Source: a virus. Taken from it: a stretch of 22,008 nt of DNA. The notes beneath the pieces were generated by a model. It was not told the DNA's origin. It did not search any database and worked only from the letters and a program-made list of their open reading frames with translations. Location: the UHGV virus genome UHGV-1547525, one strand, 5' to 3'. Made by a program: the position numbers and the translations under genes. Positions 12,234 through 20,683 of the stretch are shown in pieces; positions within the stretch are counted from its first letter, which is position 1, and every line of letters begins with the position of its first letter.

Positions 12234-13535
12234 TTAAATCCGAAGTGATGTGACTCTTCCGGTCGGTTTGACAATAGGGAATTGCTTAACGATGAAATAA
12301 CCTCCGGCATCATTCGGGTGATCATTGCCAGATTTTTTATCAGGCTCCCCCTTCTCATCCCAGACCTGTTGCTCCAGAGATTCGGCATATAACGGGCAAC
12401 GCTTCACATTAACTTTATAGCGACGCTCACCATTGGCATTGCAGAACATTGCATTCATTGAGTTAACGCGATCTTTTACTGGCGGGTTCGAGCTGTTCAC
12501 CACAACGTTAAAACCAGCCTGCTTAAGCTGGGCTATATCCGTCGTACTTGCGTTACTTGATTTTCTGGAATCCCCGGAAGCATCTGGATAAATATAAATT
12601 TCCCTCACTTTCCGGTAATCATTCCCATCATACAGCCAGAAGCGTTCTTTAATGATGCGGATCATATCCGGCGTATCGTAGGCATTGATGATTTCAGTTA
12701 CCGCACATGGAAGCCCCAAACGCAGCACATGGACGATTCCCGCCATCTTTCCAACGTTAAAATCCATCCCAATATAAATCGGCTCCCCTGGCTGCTCCAC
12801 TTCTTCGCAATTATTCAGTTTCCGGTCAAACTGATGGTAAACAGTACCACTTGTCAGGTTAGTAAACTGTCCTCGAAGATAGGCTTTAATCAGCTCTGGA
12901 GGGTATGATTCAAGAAGCGAAGGAATGTAATCTGCTGGCAGGTTCTTTTCATTATCGAAAGTAGATGCCTGCACCAGACCATACAGTGAGGCCAGCTCTG
13001 TTTTTTCACGCACGGCTTTAACAAACTGCTCGTAGACAAATTTGAATCCTTCCGGCGTGGTTGTAACGTCAATACCGTTGCGAAGTCCATCAATCTTATA
13101 ACGCATACGTGCAATTATCTTGCGCCACGCCGTTCTGGCTTTTTCCTTCGGCAAAATGTCCAGTTCATCCACCAACGCATTACCAATTTTGAAACCGACG
13201 ATCGTTTGTGGCTTCTCCATCGATCTGCAGATAGTGGTTCCCCGATACTGGCGTCCGTAATAAAAGTGAACCTCTTTATTTCCCTCATTAATTTTTACGT
13301 TCAATCCCCAGTCAGCAGCAACTTCTTCCACTGTAGGGTAAAAAATATCGCGAATTTGGGGATACGTTGGCGCAAAATATCCCTGATTTATACCTGGATG
13401 CTCCCAAATCCCCTTGCATATGCCGCCACACCCAACCCATGTTTTGCCCGAGCCAAAACCAGCAATATAGGCTTTAAATTTATGGGGCATTGAAAGAAAT
13501 CGCGCCTGAGGCACATTAAGCGTCGGAGAGATCAT
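12234..13535 (-). CDS. Terminase large subunit
   Basis: Walker A-like GFGSGKT near the N-terminus, size about 433 aa, follows the small terminase with a short overlap. ATG at 13535 has the best AAGGAG spacing; the ORF track extends to a GTG at 13544. Confidence 0.85.
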   Translation of the reverse strand: MISPTLNVPQARFLSMPHKFKAYIAGFGSGKTWVGCGGICKGIWEHPGINQGYFAPTYPQIRDIFYPTVEEVAADWGLNVKINEGNKEVHFYYGRQYRGTTICRSMEKPQTIVGFKIGNALVDELDILPKEKARTAWRKIIARMRYKIDGLRNGIDVTTTPEGFKFVYEQFVKAVREKTELASLYGLVQASTFDNEKNLPADYIPSLLESYPPELIKAYLRGQFTNLTSGTVYHQFDRKLNNCEEVEQPGEPIYIGMDFNVGKMAGIVHVLRLGLPCAVTEIINAYDTPDMIRIIKERFWLYDGNDYRKVREIYIYPDASGDSRKSSNASTTDIAQLKQAGFNVVVNSSNPPVKDRVNSMNAMFCNANGERRYKVNVKRCPLYAESLEQQVWDEKGEPDKKSGNDHPNDAGGYFIVKQFPIVKPTGRVTSLRI

Positions 13536-14610
13536 CTTCATCACTCCTTACTCTGGCATCAACCACATTAATATTGATCGCCACAGGCTGGGGATGTTCA
13601 TTATCTTCCACCGTTTCGATCTCTTTGCGCAGCTTCTGGTTTTCCATTCTGCGCCGTTCAATTTCCAGTTCCTGTAGCCGTTTATCTGCACATAAAGCCC
13701 CGCCAGCAGAAAACAAACGCAACAATTCACGCCGGGCGGCAGCCTTATCCTCCAGCAGGATCTCAACGCCGAATTTTCCGAATTTTGCCCCTGCATATAA
13801 TTGCCGCGCATCCCCATCAAGCAGAGTGGTATCAGCCATATAAAGCTGTCCCGTTCCCTCACCGCAGCACTTCGGGCAGTCCGGATTGGGTATGGCGTTA
13901 TCAACAAAGCCGAGGCCTCCATATTCCGGTTCGGGTTTGCCATCTCTGGAAGCCTGCGCCGCTGCCTTGTCGAATTCTGCTATATCGCGCCACTGGTAGA
14001 GATGATTCTCGCCCCAGCAATAACGGCAGTTAACACGGCGAAATTGTGCAAGCTGATTGGGGTCGGCCAGGACAATAGCCATCAACTGACTCACTAGTAA
14101 ATCCAGGTCTGCGGTATAGCGTTTCTGGTACTGATTGCGGAAGTAGCTGATAGCGCGAAAAACCCTGGCATTTCTAAGCATACGACTGGCGTTGCTGTTA
14201 GCTGTCGCACCTTGCCCCTCATAACCGGCTAGTCGGTACGCCTCTGTCGGCTTTTTACCCTGAGCAACAAGCATCGCAAACTTAGCCTGCTGGTCAGAAA
14301 TGCCGAATTCATCGGGACAGAACGAAAATTCCTCCGCGTCGCCCTCATTCAGGCCCGCATCGAATACTGGCTTTTTTTCCTGAGATTTTTCGTTCCGCTT
14401 TTGTGCAGTCTGCGCAGATTTTTTCTGCGCACTTTTTTGCGCAGTTTTGCACATTTCTGTCTGCGCATTTTTCGGAGTTTTTTTGATGTAACGACGGGCT
14501 GTTGCGTAATTCAGTCCCCTTGCTTCACACCATGCCACCGGAGATATACCGGAGCGGGTGTATTCAGCAATATACTCCTGCTGCAACGCCCCCCAGTCCG
14601 GTCTGCTCAT
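13516..14610 (-). CDS. Terminase small subunit (composite: N-terminal HTH, Terminase_2-like segment, Cys-rich C-terminal region)
   Basis: QQAKFAMLVAQGKKPTEAYRLAGYEGQGATANSNASRMLRNARVFRAISYF resembles the small-terminase (Terminase_2-type) motif. N-terminal HTH-like ISPVAWCEARGLNYATARRYI. C-terminal CRYC...CPKCC cysteine cluster. Directly upstream of the large terminase. Confidence 0.7.
   Translation of the reverse strand: MSRPDWGALQQEYIAEYTRSGISPVAWCEARGLNYATARRYIKKTPKNAQTEMCKTAQKSAQKKSAQTAQKRNEKSQEKKPVFDAGLNEGDAEEFSFCPDEFGISDQQAKFAMLVAQGKKPTEAYRLAGYEGQGATANSNASRMLRNARVFRAISYFRNQYQKRYTADLDLLVSQLMAIVLADPNQLAQFRRVNCRYCWGENHLYQWRDIAEFDKAAAQASRDGKPEPEYGGLGFVDNAIPNPDCPKCCGEGTGQLYMADTTLLDGDARQLYAGAKFGKFGVEILLEDKAAARRELLRLFSAGGALCADKRLQELEIERRRMENQKLRKEIETVEDNEHPQPVAININVVDARVRSDEDDLSDA
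14381..14485. repeat. Array of TGCGCA(G) hexamers alternating with phased T/A tracts inside terS
   Basis: Plus strand cTGCGCAGatttttt cTGCGCActttttt GCGCAGtttt gCACAtttctgt cTGCGCAttttt cggagttttttt: motif starts at about 14411, 14426, 14438, 14448 (variant) and 14462, separated by T-runs at 10-15 bp intervals. Encodes a K/A/Q-rich low-complexity linker. Confidence 0.5.
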
Positions 14611-14613
14611 CAG

Positions 14614-14865
14614 TTAGTCCTGATTTTTATCCACCCTGAGTAGTTCGCGCAGAGCAAAGGCATCCCCTTTTCTGGCAAGCTTAAACAATGCCGCTCGTAA
14701 CTCGGCTTCACCTTTCGCTCTGCCCTTACGGATGGCCGCATAAAAATCTGTCATTGCTTCCCGATTTTCTTTCAGTCGGTTCAGATCAACATCCAGAACG
14801 TCAGCGATTTGTTGTGCAGTCATCCGGCACGCTGCCAGAGACTCGACTTTCGAATACGGAATCAT
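14614..14865 (-). CDS. Small hypothetical protein, possibly helix-turn-helix DNA-binding
   Basis: 83-aa ORF, ATG at 14865 with GGGGGTG Shine-Dalgarno. Ends 3 nt before the terS start. Overlaps the 3' end of the upstream glycosyltransferase-like gene by 65 nt. No motif recognised with confidence. Confidence 0.35.
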   Translation of the reverse strand: MIPYSKVESLAACRMTAQQIADVLDVDLNRLKENREAMTDFYAAIRKGRAKGEAELRAALFKLARKGDAFALRELLRVDKNQD

Positions 14866-15733
14866 TTGTCACCCCCATTGATATGCAGGGTGTCTTCTTC
14901 CTGTATTTTTCGTGAAGGATTTTTACTGCAGCGTTGTTCCAGGTGACCTGATGGTGAATGCGTTTATGGCTGGCACCCATCAGTGAGATTTTTACGCACG
15001 ACGGCGCATACATGACGGAGTAAAAACTTTTAACGTAGGTTCCGGAATCCAGATACAGCTCGGTCATTCCGCCGCTGTTTTTCTGCGTCTGTTTCTGCCC
15101 TAACTGGACAGCACCGATCGTCATAAACAATTCACCACAGCGACCGAGATTCGTGTACGTATTCACATCCTCGTTAATGCGCCCCATGAATGAGAACGGT
15201 CGATCAACCGAACAGATAAAGCTGTTCATTGCCTTGCGTTTCACCCACGAAGCATGGCCGCCATTGTCACCAAGAAAATCCCCGCCCTGCGACATAGCGA
15301 TGGAAAGAGCAGGTATTGATTCGTAGTACGCCAGCATTTCAGAAAGGATCGCATCCAGTTTCCTTATCGGAAAATAGGCCTGGTCATAGTTGCGATCCAC
15401 CCGAAACTGGAACTCGTGATAATCATCATCGAGCTGAATGAAGTATTTACACCCGACCAGTTTTGCCAGGTCGAAACAGGCATTACGGGCGTAAAAAATT
15501 GAGCGGCGGTCACAGAAATTATCGGCTTCGTCAAAACGACTGGCGATATCGGCTTTGGAAAACACCAGCACCTGTTCACCAAATTCAGCCATGTACTGAT
15601 TCCGTGTCTTATCTTCATCATCAACAACGATAAAAATTTTCCCGGTATAGCCAGCACGACGCAACGTCCGGTAAGTCAGAACTTTGTCCGGTCGCCCGTG
15701 AGTCAGAATAAAGGCGCAAAAATCATCACGCAT
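14801..15733 (-). CDS. Soluble GT-A fold (GT2-like) glycosyltransferase-like protein
   Basis: Ordered GT2 signature: FCAFILTHGRPDKV (N-terminal strand), KIFIVVDDED, ARN...LAKLVGCKYFIQLDDDY (DxD). No obvious transmembrane segment. ATG at 15733 preceded by GAGGAGGAGGAA and overlapping the upstream ParB-like gene by 8 nt. Confidence 0.55.
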   Translation of the reverse strand: MRDDFCAFILTHGRPDKVLTYRTLRRAGYTGKIFIVVDDEDKTRNQYMAEFGEQVLVFSKADIASRFDEADNFCDRRSIFYARNACFDLAKLVGCKYFIQLDDDYHEFQFRVDRNYDQAYFPIRKLDAILSEMLAYYESIPALSIAMSQGGDFLGDNGGHASWVKRKAMNSFICSVDRPFSFMGRINEDVNTYTNLGRCGELFMTIGAVQLGQKQTQKNSGGMTELYLDSGTYVKSFYSVMYAPSCVKISLMGASHKRIHHQVTWNNAAVKILHEKYRKKTPCISMGVTNDSVFESRVSGSVPDDCTTNR

Positions 15734-16517
15734 ATTCCTCCTCCTCACCACCATGCATGATCTCCACCATGCGCTGCGTCATCCGGACAAATCCATTTTC
15801 AATAGCCTGCTGATAATCAATGATCACCAGCGCCGACTCCTCGAAAAAACACTGAATTTCAGAGGGGGCGTGAGCGTAATAGTCCGCAATTCTGCTGAAA
15901 TTAAACACCGTGTGACGTTCTGCCGCACACAGGAGGAATTTCTCAATATCAGGCTCAAGGGACGCCGAACGTATCCGGCTGATCAGCTCCTGAGTTTTCG
16001 TATCGTCGTACAGTTCACTGATATCCGGTTTACCGCCCGACGGCTCATAAACAGGCGTATCAATTTTCGTCGTATACGGCTCCTCCTCATTTCCTGTACC
16101 GGGCAAAACATCCGTCAACAGTTCATCAATTTCTGTCGGGCCGAAGCCTGTCAGGGAGACATCAAAATCAGCATTGATTAGGTCCGACAGCTCCATCCGC
16201 AACAGATCTTCATCCCAGCCAGCATTCATCGGTAGGCGATTATCTGCCAGGCGGTACGCCTTTTTCTGCTCATCCGTCAGGCCAGACAGAACAATGACCG
16301 GAACAGAATCCATTTTGAGCATTTCAGCCGCCATAACACGACCGTGACCCGCAATAATTTCGCCCTTTTCGTCAATCAGCACCGGATTAGTCCAGCCGAA
16401 TTGCTTAATACTTTCTACCAGTTGTGCCACCTGCTCAGTACTGTGCGTCCTGGCGTTGTGCGCATACGGTGACAATTCTTGTAATGGGCGATAGACTATC
16501 TTTAATTTCTCGCTCAT
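15726..16517 (-). CDS. ParB-like nuclease domain protein with unassigned acidic C-terminal half
   Basis: N-terminal ~100 aa YRPLQELSPYAHNARTHSTEQVAQLVESIKQFGWTNPVLIDEKGEIIAGHGRVMAA matches the ParB/Srx-fold N-domain pattern as I recall it. Remaining ~150 aa unassigned. Confidence 0.7.
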   Translation of the reverse strand: MSEKLKIVYRPLQELSPYAHNARTHSTEQVAQLVESIKQFGWTNPVLIDEKGEIIAGHGRVMAAEMLKMDSVPVIVLSGLTDEQKKAYRLADNRLPMNAGWDEDLLRMELSDLINADFDVSLTGFGPTEIDELLTDVLPGTGNEEEPYTTKIDTPVYEPSGGKPDISELYDDTKTQELISRIRSASLEPDIEKFLLCAAERHTVFNFSRIADYYAHAPSEIQCFFEESALVIIDYQQAIENGFVRMTQRMVEIMHGGEEEEYA

Positions 16518-16540: not shown

Positions 16541-16570
16541 CGCACCCCAGCAGCCAGTGCTACTGGGGGC
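16541..16570 (-). terminator. Intrinsic terminator downstream of trkG
   Basis: Minus strand CCCCAG-(12-nt loop)-CUGGGG followed by UGCGUUUUAUUC, between the trkG stop (16655) and the ParB-like start (16517). Confidence 0.5.
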
Positions 16571-16654
16571 GGAGGTGTTGCTGGTAAAGTTAGGTATTGG
16601 ATCAATGAGTGAGTCAACATAATATTAAACTCACAATTATAAATCAGCCATATA

Positions 16655-18112
16655 TTAGGAGCGCCAAAAAAAACCTGAAAACAATATAATAACAGGATAA
16701 ATTTCAAGGCGACCAAGAATCATAGCTATGCACATTAAATATTTTGCAATGTCATTAAGCACTCCGAATGACGATGCAGTAGCCCCAAAACCTAATCCCA
16801 TATTATTAATACATGCAGCCACTGTTGCAAATGATGTAAGAAAATCATATCCCATACCATTTAACACCAGTATAAAAAACACCGTGAAGAGAGTATAAAG
16901 AAAAAAGAAACTCCATACAGACCTCATTACACGATCTGTAACTATCTTCCCTCCTACATTTACACTCAACAACGCTCTGGGATGAGAAAGCTGATTTATC
17001 TCGTGTTTGCTTTGTTTGAAAAGTATAAGAAATCGAAGTGACTTAATTCCACCACAAGTTGAACCTATACATCCCCCAAAGAAACTTGACGACAGCAAAA
17101 ACACTATCGTGTGCGTGGGCCAGTTTGCATAATCCTGCGTAGCTAAACCATTATCAGTGAGCATGGAGCTGGCAAGAAAAAACGAATGAATAAAACTTCC
17201 ATGCAAGTCATACATACCTATATGCCAGACCTGGAAAGAGGTAACAATGATCACCCCTAAGGCTATTAACAGAAAGAAACGAAGTTCAATATCTCTGATT
17301 AAAGGTTTTATCGTTTTCCTGCTAATAACAATATACCAAAGAGTGAAGTTGAAAGCCGATAGCAGGGAAAAAGAACCAGCCACCAGCTCAACCAAATAGT
17401 TATTAAAATATCCGATACTCTCGCTATGAGTTGAGAAACCACCAAGCGAAACTGTGGAAATCCCGTGACAAATAGCATCAAACAAAGGCATTCCTGCAAG
17501 TCTATAACAGACAATACAAGCAATACCTAATAAAGAATAAGTTATCCACAGTGTCCGTGACGTATCGGCCAGGCGGGGAGTGAGTTTGTCATCCTTAAAT
17601 GGCCCCGGCATTTCTGACTGATAAAGCTTTGCACCACCAATACCCAATAATGGCAATACAGCAACCGCCAGAACAATAACTCCTAAACCACCTATAAAAT
17701 TTAACTGTGACCGATAGTACAAATATGCCCGAGGTAATGAACTAACATCATCAATTACAGTTGCTCCTGTTGTTGTTATTCCAGAAACCCCTTCAAACAG
17801 AGCATCAATGAACGTTAAATTAAGTTCTGAGTCAATCCATAAAGGGAATGCACTAATAACAGAAAACAAAATCCAAAACATTACAATTATAATAAACCCA
17901 TCACGGGTACGTAATTGAATGCCAGATTTCTTAGTTGTATACCACGCTCCGCCACCAATGCAAAAAAATATAACGAAAGTTATAAAGAAAACGAACAGGC
18001 TTTTTTCTTTATAAAACAATGCTACAACCATTGGTGGCAACATTGAAAGACTATAGAGCCAAACCAGGAACCCACACATATGAGTAACAACTCTTACATG
18101 AGATGTATTCAT
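16655..18112 (-). CDS. trkG: Trk-family potassium uptake membrane protein (TrkG of Rac-type prophages)
   Basis: 485-aa polytopic membrane protein from ATG at 18112 (MNTSHVRVVTHMCGFLVWLY...); the ORF-track start at 18130 is a TTG extension. TrkH/TrkG-like repeated pore-loop architecture. Visibly AT-rich relative to the flanking phage genes. Adjacent to Rz/Rz1 remnants, as I recall for E. coli K-12 Rac. Confidence 0.8.
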   Translation of the reverse strand: MNTSHVRVVTHMCGFLVWLYSLSMLPPMVVALFYKEKSLFVFFITFVIFFCIGGGAWYTTKKSGIQLRTRDGFIIIVMFWILFSVISAFPLWIDSELNLTFIDALFEGVSGITTTGATVIDDVSSLPRAYLYYRSQLNFIGGLGVIVLAVAVLPLLGIGGAKLYQSEMPGPFKDDKLTPRLADTSRTLWITYSLLGIACIVCYRLAGMPLFDAICHGISTVSLGGFSTHSESIGYFNNYLVELVAGSFSLLSAFNFTLWYIVISRKTIKPLIRDIELRFFLLIALGVIIVTSFQVWHIGMYDLHGSFIHSFFLASSMLTDNGLATQDYANWPTHTIVFLLSSSFFGGCIGSTCGGIKSLRFLILFKQSKHEINQLSHPRALLSVNVGGKIVTDRVMRSVWSFFFLYTLFTVFFILVLNGMGYDFLTSFATVAACINNMGLGFGATASSFGVLNDIAKYLMCIAMILGRLEIYPVIILFSGFFWRS

Positions 18113-18249
18113 ATCTAAATATTCTTTCAATTATAACCACCTTGCTGCAATATTATGATTATACTGTATAAAATTTAACTCCTCTTAGATCTTACTTCAC
18201 TGTTCCTTATGAAACAATCATCAAAATGAATCATATTGTAGTTAAGATT

Positions 18250-18699
18250 TTACTTTAAACACTGCTCGGTTATGTATTGCTGAGCACCTTCAAGTTGGGC
18301 CTGCATCATTACCAGTCGTTCCCGGAGGGTGAAATAATCCCGTTCAGCGGTGTCTGCCAGTCGGGGGGAGGCTGCATTATCCACGCCGGAGGCGGTGGTG
18401 GCTTCACGCACTGACTGACAGACTGCTTTGATGTGCAACCGACGACGACCAGCGGCAACATCATCACGCAGAGCATCATTTTCAGCTTTCGCATCAGCTA
18501 ACTCCTTCGTGTATTTTGCATCGAGCGCAGCAACATCACGCTGACGCATCTGCATGTCAGTAATTGCCGCGTTCGCCAGCTTCAGTTCTCTGGCATTTTT
18601 GTCGCGCTGTTCTTTGTAGGCGATGGCGTTATCACGGTAATGATTAACACCCCATGACAGGCAGACGACGATGCAGATAACCAGAGCGGAGATACCAGA
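18250..18699 (-). pseudogene. rzpR: Rz (i-spanin) remnant lacking its 5' end and start codon (rzpR-like)
   Basis: From ...[33 protein letters not shown]... through [47 protein letters not shown]...EQCLK the translation tracks lambda Rz as I recall it. The similarity breaks about 7 codons in, and there is no in-frame ATG/GTG/TTG upstream before a TGA. Confidence 0.8.
18309..18494 (-). CDS. rzoR: Rz1 (o-spanin) lipoprotein, embedded in the Rz reading frame
   Basis: 61-aa [59 protein letters not shown]... with lipobox-like VVGC and a proline run, matching lambda Rz1 as I recall it. Embedded in the +1 frame of Rz. Confidence 0.8.
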
Positions 18700-18766
18700 A
18701 TGTCTCGATTCTAGGTATTCCGCCAGGAATCTCGTTCCAGAAATGAAACATCAGGTTCGCCAGTAC

Positions 18767-18798
18767 CAGAAACAACAAAACCCGCTCAATGGCGGGTT
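18767..18798 (-). terminator. tR'-like intrinsic terminator downstream of the Q-like gene
   Basis: Minus strand AACCCGC-CAUUGA-GCGGGUU followed by UUGUUGUUUCUGG, about 85-115 nt after the Q-like stop. Confidence 0.45.
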
Positions 18799-18881
18799 CT
18801 GGTAAAGTTCATGCGCTTGGTTCGCCTCGCGATACAGCTTTGCGAAGCATACCGGAATTGAAGCAGTTTATGCGTAAAAAA

Positions 18882-19424
18882 TCAAGCTATTTTTTGAGCA
18901 AATGATTCTCGCATGGGAATATATAGGGCATACTCAGCAACAGCCAACCAATTAGCAATTCGCTTTTCGCATGTGCTAAAACACCACTCAGGATGTGCAT
19001 CATTTAGCAATTCAGCCATTTTGCGCTTAGTCATCCCCCGTCCTTCATACCGTTGCCGGAGGACACTAATCAATCCAGGATGCTCTGCCAGCACCTCACT
19101 TATGACTCTATCAATACATAACGCCTCTGCATCAGTACAATGCGCCAGCCAGGTCTTTTGCTTGCCATTGATCATCTCTCGCAAAAACGCTTCCAGCTCA
19201 GGTTTCTCTATTCCCGCTTTTTTCATCCTGCGCAGGGCTTCATTGACGGCTGTTTTCGTCAATTTTTTGGATGCCAGCAACTGGTTAAACATATTTCCCG
19301 TCTTACCGCCGCCAATATACGACCAGCGCCCCCACATGCGCAGTTTTCCCTGAATCCAGACACTTTCCAGCGTGGTGAGACGAAGGTGTTCCCCGCTTTT
19401 GCCTGTATTTGTTGGGTAAATCAT
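18882..19424 (-). CDS. Late-gene antitermination protein Q-like (tentative)
   Basis: 180-aa ORF from ATG at 19424, overlapping the upstream stop (ATGA); the ORF-track start at 19544 is an upstream extension. Assigned mainly by position: last gene before the promoter/terminator-like leader and lysis remnants, after nin-region-like genes. Confidence 0.4.
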   Translation of the reverse strand: MIYPTNTGKSGEHLRLTTLESVWIQGKLRMWGRWSYIGGGKTGNMFNQLLASKKLTKTAVNEALRRMKKAGIEKPELEAFLREMINGKQKTWLAHCTDAEALCIDRVISEVLAEHPGLISVLRQRYEGRGMTKRKMAELLNDAHPEWCFSTCEKRIANWLAVAEYALYIPMRESFAQKIA

Positions 19425-19711
19425 AAATAACCTTCCTTTCTCCAGATTTCTTGTGTGCGAAAAACACCTTCTGCATGCATCAGGCGTAATTCTTCTTTGG
19501 TGTAATCGCTGGTTTTTACCCGCCCGTCGATTAGATCGTGGCATGAGCTACAGGCTATCGCCGCCTGCATATCGTGTGGTTTTGTCGCTGTTCCGCACGT
19601 CCCCGCCAGCCTGTAATGCGCCAGCACAGAGGTTTCGGGATTGTGATTGCAGTAGCCAGGGATTCTGATCTGGCACATCTGGCCTTTAGCCGCTTTACGT
19701 AAATTCACCAT
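19421..19711 (-). CDS. YbcO-like (DUF1364) putative zinc-binding nuclease of the nin region
   Basis: 96 aa with CQIRIPGYC ... CSSCH cysteine pairs. Length and motifs resemble the prophage-encoded YbcO family as I recall it. Start overlaps the upstream stop (TAATG). Confidence 0.55.
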   Translation of the reverse strand: MVNLRKAAKGQMCQIRIPGYCNHNPETSVLAHYRLAGTCGTATKPHDMQAAIACSSCHDLIDGRVKTSDYTKEELRLMHAEGVFRTQEIWRKEGYL

Positions 19712-20310
19712 TACGCAAACTCCAGTAGTTGTGCGGCCACATTTTCAACTTCCTCCTGAGAGGAGAATTTACGGAACAGGATCCAGTTCCACAGCACATT
19801 CAGTACAGATTTATAAACCTGCTGAAACTCGACTTCGTCCATATTCGCAAAAGCGATGGATTTTGCCCGACGCCCACGGCTACCGTCCGGATAAATATGC
19901 TCGGTGTAAAATCCGGCCTGAATGGTTACCCACTCGCGGAAAGCCTCAAACGACTTTAGCAACGCCGTATCCCGGGTTCTACGAGTCGCAACGGTGTTAA
20001 GGTATTGCTCTGCGGCATCACTCAGGGCTGGAGTGTGTTCCCGACCTACTGATTCGCACAGGTAATCAACGAAGCCCGATACCAGTTTTCGTTCGCGAGG
20101 CGTGATCGCCCCACCGACCGGAGTCCAGTAATCGAATCCCAGTTGCAGGAGTTTGAAAAAACGCTTGTGGAATGCGTAGTTACGCACACGCTTAAAGTCT
20201 GCGTGTATCCACTCACCTATTTTGATTTGATGCAAAAAATCGCAACTCTCCGGCGTCGCCGGGAGAAGTAAACCAGAAGAGGTTTGTTTGACCAGTTGTA
20301 TATGCGCCAT
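19711..20310 (-). CDS. nin-region hypothetical protein (DUF1367-like, tentative)
   Basis: 199-aa ORF, ATG at 20310, translationally coupled to the YbcO-like gene. Family assignment is from memory only. Confidence 0.35.
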   Translation of the reverse strand: MAHIQLVKQTSSGLLLPATPESCDFLHQIKIGEWIHADFKRVRNYAFHKRFFKLLQLGFDYWTPVGGAITPRERKLVSGFVDYLCESVGREHTPALSDAAEQYLNTVATRRTRDTALLKSFEAFREWVTIQAGFYTEHIYPDGSRGRRAKSIAFANMDEVEFQQVYKSVLNVLWNWILFRKFSSQEEVENVAAQLLEFA

Positions 20311-20590
20311 TTCTCAATCTCTCGATGGCGCAGCGCAGCAGATGCCAGTTGTTCAGGCTGACGAATAAAGTATAAATAAACTGGCTATGGTGTAAAGCCC
20401 CACATAGCATGAACAAACACTACATATCAAATAGCTGGTACAAGGATAGAAATACGACATTTATTATTAAAAACGATTAGATAAATTACATTTTAATGTT
20501 ATGCAAAAGTTCTTTTTTATCATAACATTTCAATAAAAGCATTACAGATGCAATCATCCCGTCATCATCAATTATTTAAGGTGGTTAAAC

Positions 20591-20683
20591 ATGGAAAATA
20601 ACAAGTTCGCACATCTCGCTCCTTTTTTATCCGTAATCCTTTTCGCTTGTTTTTTTTATATGGGCATTATTTTTATAAAGTAG
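20591..20683 (+). CDS. 30-codon small hydrophobic peptide ORF (hypothetical)
   Basis: ATG preceded by AAGGTGG at about 8 nt. Translation MENNKFAHLAPFLSVILFACFFYMGIIFIK contains one ~21-residue hydrophobic stretch. Lies in an AT-rich intergenic island; not in the ORF track. Confidence 0.3.
   Translation: MENNKFAHLAPFLSVILFACFFYMGIIFIK

What the first reader, a model, noticed from the sequence alone, without database searches (positions are those of the whole stretch)
14801..16517. Translationally coupled ParB-like nuclease-domain protein plus soluble GT2-type glycosyltransferase-like protein next to the packaging genes
Between trkG and terS lie a 263-aa protein with a ParB/Srx-type N-domain (…IAGHGRVMAA…) and an unassigned acidic C-terminal half, and a 310-aa protein with the ordered GT-A/GT2 signature (FCAFILTHGRP, KIFIVVDDED, ARN, QLDDDY) but no membrane anchor or GtrA-like partner. 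The second gene starts 8 nt inside the first behind a GAGGAGGAGGAA ribosome-binding site. Phage glycosyltransferases known from lysogenic conversion are membrane-bound, and I cannot assign this pairing to a described system. Candidate roles are glycosylation of phage DNA or virion proteins, counter-defence, or a packaging-associated nuclease function analogous to terminase-adjacent HNH endonucleases.
Basis: partly seen in the sequence, partly recalled or inferred. Interest (0 to 1): 0.65.

Follow-up and report, generated by a model that had tools for sequence, protein, structure and literature searches.

The report
ParB-like partner plus DNA-type glycosyltransferase cassette
Two overlapping genes just ahead of the DNA-packaging genes of an E. 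coli Rac-type prophage encode a ParB-like helper protein and a sugar-transferring enzyme of the family phages use to put sugars on their DNA; the pair is conserved across bacterial and archaeal viruses, yet nothing nearby makes the hydroxymethyl bases that such enzymes normally need, so what it glycosylates is unknown.

Summary
On the minus strand, 15726-16517 encodes a 263-aa ParB/Srx-fold protein, the full-length form of the E. coli K-12 Rac remnant YnaK. 14801-15733 encodes a 310-aa soluble GT-A glycosyltransferase. The genes overlap by 8 nt behind GAGGAGGAGGAA.

The glycosyltransferase is assignable. It is a strong member of Pfam TAGT (TET-associated glycosyltransferase, PF20691), the family of the T2/T6 enzyme that adds a second glucose to glucosyl-hydroxymethylcytosine DNA.

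New here:
- This TAGT clade sat directly behind a ParB-like gene in 138 of 140 loci, from Proteobacteria, Bacteroidota, Firmicutes, Acidobacteriota, CPR and a haloarchaeal virus, usually with an 8- or 11-nt overlap.
- The pair precedes terminases of at least five types.
- The constant partner is the acidic C-terminal ~115-aa domain, not the ParB N-domain. In some lytic phages that domain stands alone in replication modules.
- No recurrent TET/JBP or thymidylate-synthase-like gene lies nearby; none was found among the ten uncharacterised non-structural proteins scanned from the Rac-type prophage, and phi jlb1 has no candidate ORF.

Best reading: a ParB-assisted DNA glycosylation cassette acting around packaging, by analogy with ParB-dependent phage thymine dioxygenases. 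The acceptor is unknown. It is a new variant of a known kind and directly testable.

The parts
15726..16517 (-). ParB-like protein, 263 aa; the full-length form of the E. coli K-12 Rac remnant ynaK
   Evidence: ORF. Pfam ParB_N 29.3 bits against a cut-off of 26.3. PHROG 620 E 1e-90. RefSeq gene name ynaK; K-12 keeps only about the first 85 codons, joined to ydaY.
16113..16517 (-). N-terminal ParB/Srx (ParB-CTPase fold) nucleotide-binding domain, residues 1-135; box II reads GHGR
   Evidence: Profile hits to Noc/ParB structures, E 2e-5. Foldseek of the model hits Noc, ParB, PadC, KorB and sulfiredoxin. PADLOC MTase_II N-terminus, E 7e-39. tblastn finds the domain in 529 phage records, mostly at the N-termini of DNA methyltransferases.
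15729..16082 (-). TAGT-partner domain, residues about 146-263: invariant YTxKIxxPxYEP motif, then a helical domain and an acidic tail; no Pfam or PDB match
   Evidence: Conserved from E. coli to a haloarchaeal virus, and present as a standalone 131-139-aa protein in some phages. Found in 28 cultured-phage records, all of them TAGT carriers. At least 1189 clusters at 50% identity, and in the 150 listed the domain always lies at the C-terminus.
14801..15733 (-). Soluble GT-A glycosyltransferase of the TAGT family (PF20691), 310 aa; DxD motif D102-D104. The last ~22 residues are a lineage-specific, low-confidence extension.
   Evidence: Pfam TAGT E 7.6e-35; PHROG 842 E 1e-103. AF2 model with pLDDT above 90 over most of residues 1-150. 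All top Foldseek hits in the PDB are GT-A enzymes. Invariant residues. Homologues end near residue 288.
15726..15746 (-). Translational-coupling junction: SD-like GAGGAGGAGGAA (15746..15735), the TAGT ATG (15733..15731), and the ParB-like stop TGA (15728..15726); 8-nt overlap ATGCGTGA
   Evidence: Read directly from the sequence. An 8-nt overlap occurs in 25 loci and an 11-nt overlap in 23 of the 57 loci evaluated.
16545..16568 (-). Terminator-like hairpin (10-bp stem, 7 G-C pairs, tail TGCGTTTTAT) between trkG and the ParB-like start. It probably ends the trkG moron; late transcripts would have to read through it.
   Evidence: Consensus scan; function inferred.
12234..14865 (-). Packaging genes immediately downstream (context): small HTH ORF 14614..14865 overlapping the TAGT 3' end, TerS 13516..14610, TerL 12234..13544
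   Evidence: Pfam Terminase_2, Terminase_6N and Terminase_6C; PHROG 309, 51 and 2.

Best explanation
This is a two-gene phage cassette for glycosylating DNA.

The 310-aa protein is a metal-dependent, DxD-type GT-A glycosyltransferase of the TAGT family that uses a nucleotide sugar.

The 263-aa protein is its dedicated accessory subunit. Its C-terminal ~115-aa domain, which begins at the invariant YTxKIxxPxYEP motif, is proposed to bind the enzyme. Its N-terminal ParB/Srx NTP-binding domain is proposed to act as a nucleotide-gated clamp or loader that gives the enzyme access to, or residence on, double-stranded DNA. This is what has been shown for the ParB-like activators of phage thymine dioxygenases.

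The two proteins are made in fixed proportion by translational coupling, as the first genes of the late packaging operon. Replicated phage DNA would therefore be modified just before or during packaging, most plausibly to blunt restriction or other DNA-targeting defences in the next host.

Shown here: family and fold of both proteins, the near-obligate pairing, the conserved overlap, the position ahead of unrelated terminases or inside replication modules, and the absence of a recurrent hydroxymethyl-pyrimidine-generating partner.

Inferred: a physical complex, DNA as the acceptor, the timing, and the biological benefit.

Unknown: the acceptor atom. No 5hmC or 5hmU source is evident, so it would have to be either a canonical DNA group or a precursor made by an unrecognised route.
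For: - Family and fold: Pfam TAGT 121 bits against a cut-off of 27.5, and PHROG 842 E 1e-103. GT-A fold with an invariant DDD motif. The family's characterised phage member acts on DNA (PMC13216743, PMC13390438).
- Pairing: 138 of 140 loci carrying this TAGT clade have a ParB-like gene directly upstream on the same strand. This holds across phyla and in the archaeal virus HHTV-2.
- Reciprocity: the partner domain occurs in 28 cultured-phage records, all of them TAGT carriers.
- Coupling: 8- or 11-nt overlap in 48 of 57 loci.
- DNA-centred contexts: the pair lies directly before terminases of at least five Pfam types. Alternatively, with only the partner domain present, it lies between PolA and a beta-clamp homologue or inside a replication module.
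- N-domain: it is the same subfamily that is fused to DNA methyltransferases in phages. ParB-like proteins are experimentally required by a class of phage DNA dioxygenases on dsDNA (PMC13229309).
- Some loci add a second TAGT, a TAGT-SAM-methyltransferase fusion or sugar-nucleotide genes, as expected for building glycans on a polymer.
- The enzyme is 42-57% identical across phyla, which fits a universal substrate such as DNA better than a host-specific protein.
Against: - No enzyme that would create the hydroxyl acceptor used by every characterised DNA glycosyltransferase was found. TET_JBP and Thymidylat_synt are absent from the recurrent families among 580 neighbouring proteins of 42 loci. 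They are also absent from the ten uncharacterised non-structural proteins scanned from the complete Rac-type prophage. The complete 38-kb phage phi jlb1 has no ORF that could plausibly be one.
- The Pfam survey lists only the 25 commonest families per set, so single occurrences could have been missed.
- The ParB-like protein is strongly acidic (pI 4.5) and has no recognisable DNA-binding domain.
- No fusion of the partner domain to TAGT was seen, and no complex prediction could be run.
- A eukaryotic TAGT-domain protein, GREB1, glycosylates a protein rather than DNA (PMC7968844).
- No paper reporting modified DNA in any carrier phage was found in the literature searched; only HHTV-2 was searched for by name.
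Confidence: 0.5

Rival explanations
1. The enzyme glycosylates a protein rather than DNA. The most likely target is its own partner, on the invariant Tyr/Thr residues of the disordered YTxKIxxPxYEP motif (as glycogenin glucosylates itself). Another possible target is a packaging or replication protein, with the ParB-like protein serving as substrate or scaffold.
For: - GREB1, a eukaryotic TAGT-domain protein, O-GlcNAcylates a protein (PMC7968844).
- The only universally co-occurring protein is the partner.
- Its invariant Y148, T/S149 and Y157 lie in a segment modelled with pLDDT below 50.
- No DNA hydroxyl acceptor source is present.
- Glycogenins appear among the weaker Foldseek hits.
Against: - The characterised phage member of the family acts on DNA (PMC13216743).
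- The fused N-domain is the module otherwise attached to DNA methyltransferases.
- Contexts next to polymerase, clamp and terminase genes point to DNA.
- A conserved short motif in a disordered linker is at least as well explained as a docking peptide.
Confidence: 0.2
2. The enzyme keeps the classical TAGT specificity for hydroxymethyl or already glucosylated pyrimidines. In that case either it acts on the DNA of other, superinfecting phages such as T-even phages, as a prophage-encoded exclusion or interference function, or it is an orphan left over from a former TET-containing cassette.
For: - The Pfam family is defined by its association with TET, and its T2/T6 member extends glucosyl-hmC (PMC13216743).
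- bioRxiv 2023.12.21.572611 speculates that prophage GTs could hypermodify invading genomes.
- The site between the lysis and packaging genes is a moron hot spot: trkG sits there in this window, and enterotoxin genes in Yersinia locus L002.
Against: - The pair is translationally linked to the late packaging operon rather than being an autonomous moron.
- It also occurs in lytic phages, inside replication modules.
- A relic would not stay 42-57% identical across phyla with all motifs intact, always with its partner.
- Most hosts, for example Bacteroidota, Lactobacillus and haloarchaea, are not known prey of hmC phages (my own knowledge).
Confidence: 0.1
3. The ParB-like protein is a nuclease or site-specific DNA-binding factor that assists terminase, and the glycosyltransferase is functionally unrelated cargo.
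For: - Historical annotation as a 'ParB-like nuclease domain'.
- Position immediately upstream of terS/terL in many phages.
Against: - Near-obligate co-occurrence and coupling with TAGT, whatever the terminase type.
- The N-domain is absent in lineages where the pair sits in replication modules.
- No DNA-binding or nuclease domain was detected beyond the NTP-binding fold.
- The protein is strongly acidic.
Confidence: 0.05
4. The pair is a lysogenic-conversion enzyme that modifies the cell envelope (O-antigen or teichoic acid).
For: Foldseek neighbours include cell-wall GT-A enzymes such as RmlT, SpsA and GtrB.
Against: - Neither protein has a membrane segment.
- No GtrA or GtrC-like gene turned up in any annotated or Pfam-scanned neighbourhood, and none lies in the window between the pair and its flanking genes.
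- The pair is conserved in hosts with entirely different envelopes, including an archaeon.
- It is linked to late genes and to ParB.
Confidence: 0.03

Closest known systems
T2/T6 beta-glucosyl-HMC-alpha-glucosyltransferase, the biochemically characterised TAGT (PF20691) member (PMC13216743, PMC13390438)
   Same: Same Pfam family, GT-A fold with a DxD motif, soluble, phage-encoded. PHROG 842 carries this name.
   Different: - Only a distant relative: tblastn found no T2 or T6 record at E <= 1e-3, and T4-like Aeromonas phages match at 23% identity, E 2e-4.
- The T-even enzyme needs hmC made before replication and a first glucose from alpha-GT. Neither is encoded here.
- The T-even enzyme has no ParB-like partner, as far as I know.
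Phage MT/5mYOX(TET)-glycosyltransferase hypermodification gene clusters (PMC8256090; bioRxiv 2023.12.21.572611; the original prediction by Iyer et al. 2013 is known to me only through citation)
   Same: GT-A DNA glycosyltransferases acting after replication. ParB-like and terminase genes are frequent neighbours. ParB was proposed to direct the modification machinery during packaging.
   Different: No methyltransferase/dioxygenase pair or thymidylate-synthase homologue accompanies this clade, so the 5hmC/5hmU acceptor of those pathways is not provided.
ParB-dependent phage thymine dioxygenases (5mYOX176/ParB176; PMC13229309)
   Same: A ParB-like protein with a nucleotide-binding domain and a C-terminal domain but no DNA-binding domain, encoded next to a DNA-modifying enzyme and needed for its action on dsDNA. 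Cognate-pair specificity there parallels the dedicated partner domain here.
   Different: The client enzyme is a glycosyltransferase, not a dioxygenase. Homology of the C-terminal domains could not be tested because no sequences were available. Dependence is inferred here, not shown.
ParB-N-domain-DNA methyltransferase fusions of phages and prophages (PHROG 498; PADLOC MTase_II; PMC12704722)
   Same: The same N-domain subfamily: E 3e-51 and 7e-39, and 529 phage records. They are often found near packaging genes.
   Different: Here the effector is a separate, translationally coupled glycosyltransferase, joined through a specific adaptor domain rather than by fusion.
E. coli K-12 YnaK (Rac prophage remnant)
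   Same: The first ~85 codons are identical.
   Different: K-12 lost the rest of the gene, the glycosyltransferase and the packaging and head genes. The window holds the intact ancestral form.
GREB1 / base-J glucosyltransferase (eukaryotic relatives of TAGT; PMC7968844)
   Same: Related GT-A catalytic domain. RefSeq names the window protein 'GREB1-related protein'.
   Different: GREB1 modifies a protein and JGT modifies hmU in DNA. Neither has a ParB-like partner.

Membership tests
TAGT, TET-associated glycosyltransferase (Pfam PF20691) | Match to the family profile above the curated cut-off | tested here: met
   121.1 bits against a cut-off of 27.5, E 7.6e-35, covering residues 8-222 and profile positions 4-205 of 205. 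All homologues carry PF20691.
TAGT, TET-associated glycosyltransferase (Pfam PF20691) | GT-A fold with a DxD metal/nucleotide-sugar motif | tested here: met
   All top Foldseek hits are GT-A enzymes. D102, D103 and D104 are invariant in 37 sequences.
TAGT, TET-associated glycosyltransferase (Pfam PF20691) | Genomic association with a TET/JBP dioxygenase or another source of 5-hydroxymethyl pyrimidine (or a first glucosyltransferase) | tested here: not met
   No recurrent TET_JBP or Thymidylat_synt among 580 neighbours of 42 loci. None among the ten uncharacterised non-structural proteins scanned from the Rac-type prophage, and no candidate ORF in phi jlb1. Caveat: only the 25 commonest families per set are listed.
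TAGT, TET-associated glycosyltransferase (Pfam PF20691) | Transfers sugar to DNA | not testable with these tools
   Needs biochemistry or nucleoside mass spectrometry.
ParB/Srx (ParB-CTPase) fold, PF02195 | [quoted passage not shown] | tested here: met
   ParB_N 29.3 bits against a cut-off of 26.3. Profile hits to Noc/ParB structures. Foldseek hits to Noc, ParB, PadC, KorB and Srx. GHGR aligns with GERR, and the final Arg is invariant.
Canonical partition ParB (TIGR00180; ParABS) | HTH DNA-binding domain, C-terminal dimerisation domain of the ParB type, ParA partner and parS | tested here: not met
   TIGR00180 38 bits against a cut-off of 58, N-domain only. No HTH or ParB C-domain hit in Pfam. 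No parA among the neighbours.
ParB-dependent DNA-modifying enzyme systems (as defined for 5mYOX; PMC13229309) | ParB-like gene with NBD and CTD but no DNA-binding domain, adjacent to and specific for a DNA-modifying enzyme | tested here: met
   Architecture. Adjacency in 138 of 140 loci. The partner domain is exclusive to TAGT carriers.
ParB-dependent DNA-modifying enzyme systems (as defined for 5mYOX; PMC13229309) | The client enzyme is a 5-methylpyrimidine dioxygenase and its activity on dsDNA requires the ParB | tested here: not met
   The client is a glycosyltransferase and no dioxygenase is present. The requirement itself cannot be tested here.
Gtr-type lysogenic-conversion glycosylation (GtrA/GtrB/GtrC) | Membrane-associated bactoprenol glucosyltransferase with a flippase and a serotype-specific membrane GT | tested here: not met
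   No membrane segments. No Gtr-like neighbours.

The most novel reading that the evidence does not exclude
The pair installs a sugar on DNA that carries no hydroxymethyl pyrimidine. The target could be a canonical base, the backbone or a DNA end, with a ParB-type NTP-gated clamp delivering the enzyme. That would be a new chemistry of DNA glycosylation, present in about one in six sequenced E. coli strains and in viruses of many bacterial phyla and of haloarchaea.
Probability: 0.22. Interest if true: 0.9.

Novelty: new variant of a known kind. Interest (0 to 1): 0.6.

Why it matters
Solitary TAGT homologues were recently flagged as having a yet-to-be-defined function; PMC13216743 counts them in 288 of 753 phage genomes. 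This work shows that one large clade of them is not solitary. It always comes with a dedicated partner domain, usually fused to a ParB NTP-binding module, at the head of the packaging operon or inside the replication module, and without any known way to make the usual acceptor.

If the pair modifies DNA, three things follow:
- The idea of ParB-assisted DNA-modifying enzymes would extend from dioxygenases to glycosyltransferases.
- Common E. coli, Salmonella, Klebsiella, Lactobacillus and gut Bacteroidota prophages would package sugar-modified DNA, which would affect restriction and defence outcomes, transduction and sequencing.
- A new acceptor chemistry might be revealed.

The system is easy to test, because the genes come from E. 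coli itself and from cultured phages.

Tried and rejected
- Hidden hydroxymethylase or dioxygenase. I scanned ten uncharacterised proteins of the complete Rac-type prophage and 580 neighbouring proteins from 42 diverse loci, and read the complete annotation and ORF map of phi jlb1. Nothing was found. The alignment-based Pfam summary shows only the 25 commonest families, so singletons stay unchecked.
- Sequences of published 5mYOX/ParB pairs, needed to compare C-terminal domains and build a local TET profile. No sequence files are held.
- The 2013 paper by Iyer et al. is not in the library. Its proposal is cited only through PMC8256090.
- Sequence search of the PDB with the TAGT profile found no relative. 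The partner domain has no Pfam, NCBIfam or PDB match, and its model confidence is too low for fold assignment.
- Rosetta-stone fusions of partner and TAGT: none in the loci or among the 150 representatives.
- Defence-system libraries: only the methyltransferase-type N-domain hit.
- Literature on modified DNA in carrier phages: only HHTV-2 was searched for by name, and nothing relevant turned up.
- Membrane-bound conversion GT and packaging-nuclease readings were rejected for the reasons given under the rival explanations.
Full report
**What is there.**
The window is a Rac-type lambdoid prophage of E. coli. It is 99.4-99.7% identical to prophage-derived records such as ON470595, inserted next to ttcA. 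The late genes run on the minus strand.

- 15726..16517 encodes a 263-aa protein.
- 14801..15733 encodes a 310-aa protein. Its ATG (15733-15731) lies 8 nt inside the first gene (shared ATGCGTGA), one base after GAGGAGGAGGAA (15746..15735).
- Neither protein has a membrane-spanning segment.
- Upstream lies trkG (16655..18130), followed by a strong terminator-like hairpin at 16568..16545.
- Downstream lie a small HTH ORF, TerS and TerL.

**Identity of the two proteins.**
The 310-aa protein is a clear member of Pfam PF20691, the TET-associated glycosyltransferase (TAGT) family: 121 bits against a cut-off of 27.5. It also matches PHROG 842 at E 1e-103.
- An AlphaFold2 model (mean pLDDT 74.5, above 90 over most of the N-terminal 150 residues) matches only GT-A, DxD-type glycosyltransferases in the PDB.
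- D102, D103 and D104 and some 60 other positions are invariant in 37 homologues.
- The family's biochemically known phage member is the T2/T6 enzyme that adds a second glucose to glucosyl-hydroxymethylcytosine in DNA (PMC13216743, PMC13390438).

The 263-aa protein has an N-terminal ParB/Srx (ParB-CTPase) fold, with box II reading GHGR.
- RefSeq calls it ynaK. E. coli K-12 retains only the first ~85 codons, joined to ydaY.
- Its N-domain belongs to the subfamily found at the N-terminus of phage DNA methyltransferases: PHROG 498 at E 3e-51, PADLOC MTase_II at E 7e-39, and 529 phage records by tblastn.
- The C-terminal half has no Pfam, NCBIfam or PDB match.

**The pair is a conserved module.**
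Three look-ups of homologues at 60-75% identity showed a ParB-like gene overlapping the TAGT gene directly upstream of three unrelated terminase systems: Terminase_6N, lambda GpA, and Terminase_4/TerL_ATPase.

I then scanned the viral and the species-representative genome collections. They returned 135 loci; with the five loci that makes 140. In 138 of the 140 a homologue of the 263-aa protein lies immediately upstream on the same strand.
- The genome loci come from Enterobacterales, Bacteroidota, Firmicutes, Desulfobacterota, Acidobacteriota, Actinomycetota and CPR bacteria.
- TAGT identity to the E. coli protein is still 42-57% in these distant hosts.
- The stop/start overlap is 8 nt in 25 loci and 11 nt in 23 of the 57 evaluated.
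- Cultured carriers include Lactobacillus gasseri phage phi jlb1, L. delbrueckii phages c5 and LL-Ku, Nocardia phage NTR1, 190-kb Vibrio phages, and the haloarchaeal virus HHTV-2.
- In E. coli, 889 of 5426 complete genomes carry the whole pair.

**The constant partner is the C-terminal domain.**
- In several lineages only the last ~115-135 residues are encoded, as a standalone protein in front of TAGT. These proteins start at the invariant motif YTxKIxxPxYEP.
- In those lineages the pair lies between a family-A DNA polymerase and a beta-clamp homologue, or inside the replication module of a 191-kb Vibrio phage.
- In cultured phages this domain occurs in 28 records, all of them TAGT carriers.
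- In a 1.8-billion-protein representative library it defines at least 1189 clusters at 50% identity. In the 150 listed it always lies at the C-terminus, preceded by this or another ParB-like N-domain or by nothing.
- The protein is very acidic (pI 4.5) and TAGT is mildly basic (pI 8.0-8.5).

**What is missing.**
Every characterised DNA glycosyltransferase uses a hydroxyl supplied by 5hmC, 5hmU or a first sugar. I found no source of one.
- The ten uncharacterised proteins scanned from the complete Rac-type prophage gave no TET/JBP or thymidylate-synthase-like hit.
- The complete 38-kb genome of phi jlb1 has no unassigned ORF large enough to be one.
- Among 580 proteins within 8 kb of the pair in 42 diverse loci, the recurrent Pfam families are terminases of several types, portals, SSB, helicases, a few N6/N4 and C5 methyltransferases, and beta-clamps. 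TET_JBP and Thymidylat_synt are not among them.
- Caveat: that summary lists only the 25 commonest families per set of 130-150 proteins, so isolated cases cannot be excluded.

**Mechanism proposed.**
The closest functional precedent is the 2026 demonstration that a subclass of phage thymine dioxygenases needs an adjacent ParB-like protein to act on dsDNA. That protein has a nucleotide-binding domain and a C-terminal domain but no DNA-binding domain, and the pairs are cognate-specific (PMC13229309). ParB had earlier been proposed to direct modification enzymes during packaging (as cited in PMC8256090).

By analogy I propose three steps:
1. The partner domain docks TAGT.
2. The ParB N-domain provides NTP-gated loading or residence on dsDNA.
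3. The pair, made stoichiometrically by translational coupling at the head of the late operon, glycosylates replicated phage DNA before or during packaging.

The replication-module variants lack the ParB N-domain. Three of them (L111, L114, L134) sit next to a sliding-clamp homologue and the Vibrio phage pv27 copy lies a few kb from a polymerase processivity factor, which fits a requirement for some DNA-tracking device. Family, fold, pairing, coupling and context are shown. The complex, the DNA acceptor, the timing and the benefit are inferred. The acceptor atom is unknown.

**Rivals.**
- Protein glycosylation, possibly of the partner's own invariant Tyr/Thr motif, is the main alternative. Its precedent is GREB1 (PMC7968844).
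- Action on foreign hmC DNA, or a relic function, is unlikely given late-operon linkage, presence in lytic phages and strong conservation.
- A packaging-nuclease role for the ParB-like protein is unlikely because it is tied to TAGT rather than to any terminase type, and its N-domain is dispensable in some lineages.
- A cell-envelope conversion role is unlikely because there are no membrane segments or Gtr partners, and the hosts have very different envelopes.

**Comparison with what is known, and novelty.**
The enzyme is a member of a described family. The general link between ParB-like genes and phage DNA-modification genes has been noted before (PMC8256090; bioRxiv 2023.12.21.572611), so this is not categorically new.

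As far as the literature I could search shows, four things are new:
- this large TAGT clade is obligately paired with a dedicated, previously unnamed partner domain;
- the ParB N-domain is the exchangeable part of that partner;
- the cassette is TET-less;
- it is the intact form of the K-12 pseudogene-like remnant ynaK, and it is common in E. coli.

PMC13216743 explicitly lists solitary TAGTs as being of undefined function. I rate the finding a new variant of a known kind, with moderate to high interest because it is widespread, its chemistry is unexplained, and it can be tested directly in E. coli.

Noticed in passing
window 18555-18900 (junction near 18694-18767): Compared with the otherwise 99.4%-identical prophage record ON470595, the window lacks about 1.9 kb holding two tRNA genes, two small hypothetical ORFs, holin S, endolysin R and the start of the spanin gene. 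Rz is truncated (18250..18555), with an embedded Rz1-like ORF (18309..18494). This copy is probably lysis-defective.
   Followed up: partly
window 16545-18130: trkG sits as a moron between the lysis remnant and the late packaging operon. It is followed by a strong terminator-like hairpin (16568..16545, minus strand) just before the ParB-like start, so late transcripts must read through it.
   Followed up: partly
window 14801-14865: The E. coli TAGT is ~22 residues longer than nearly all homologues (about 288 aa). The low-confidence tail is encoded in another frame of the first 65 nt of the next ORF (14614..14865). This looks like a mosaic recombination junction rather than a functional extension.
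   Followed up: partly
window 18767-20679: The Q/YbcO/DUF1367 side of the window is only 88.9% identical to ON470595, while the structural side is 99.4% identical. This is a mosaic boundary at the lysis region.
   Followed up: no
L001 (ON470595) 26064-29457: An AAA ATPase (384 aa) followed by an S8 subtilase (738 aa) lies between the replication genes and Q of the related prophage. This may be an accessory or defence pair. It was not checked whether the window holds it.
   Followed up: no
L002 2180-3332 (Yersinia enterocolitica prophage): Heat-labile enterotoxin type II-like A and B subunit genes lie directly upstream of the ParB-like/TAGT pair. The same insertion hot spot holds trkG in E. coli.
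   Followed up: no
L132 2614-6161; L111 2970-5117: Elaborated versions of the cassette. In L132 a TAGT is fused to a class-I SAM methyltransferase and followed by a second TAGT. In L111 two TAGT paralogues flank the standalone partner domain. MobA-like NTP transferase and epimerase genes occur in some neighbourhoods, which suggests longer or decorated glycans.
   Followed up: partly
L111 691-6196; L114 7306-11962; L134 2182-3243: In phages that lack the ParB N-domain, the partner-TAGT pair sits immediately before a DnaN-like beta-clamp gene. In L111 and L114 it also follows a family-A DNA polymerase gene.
   Followed up: partly
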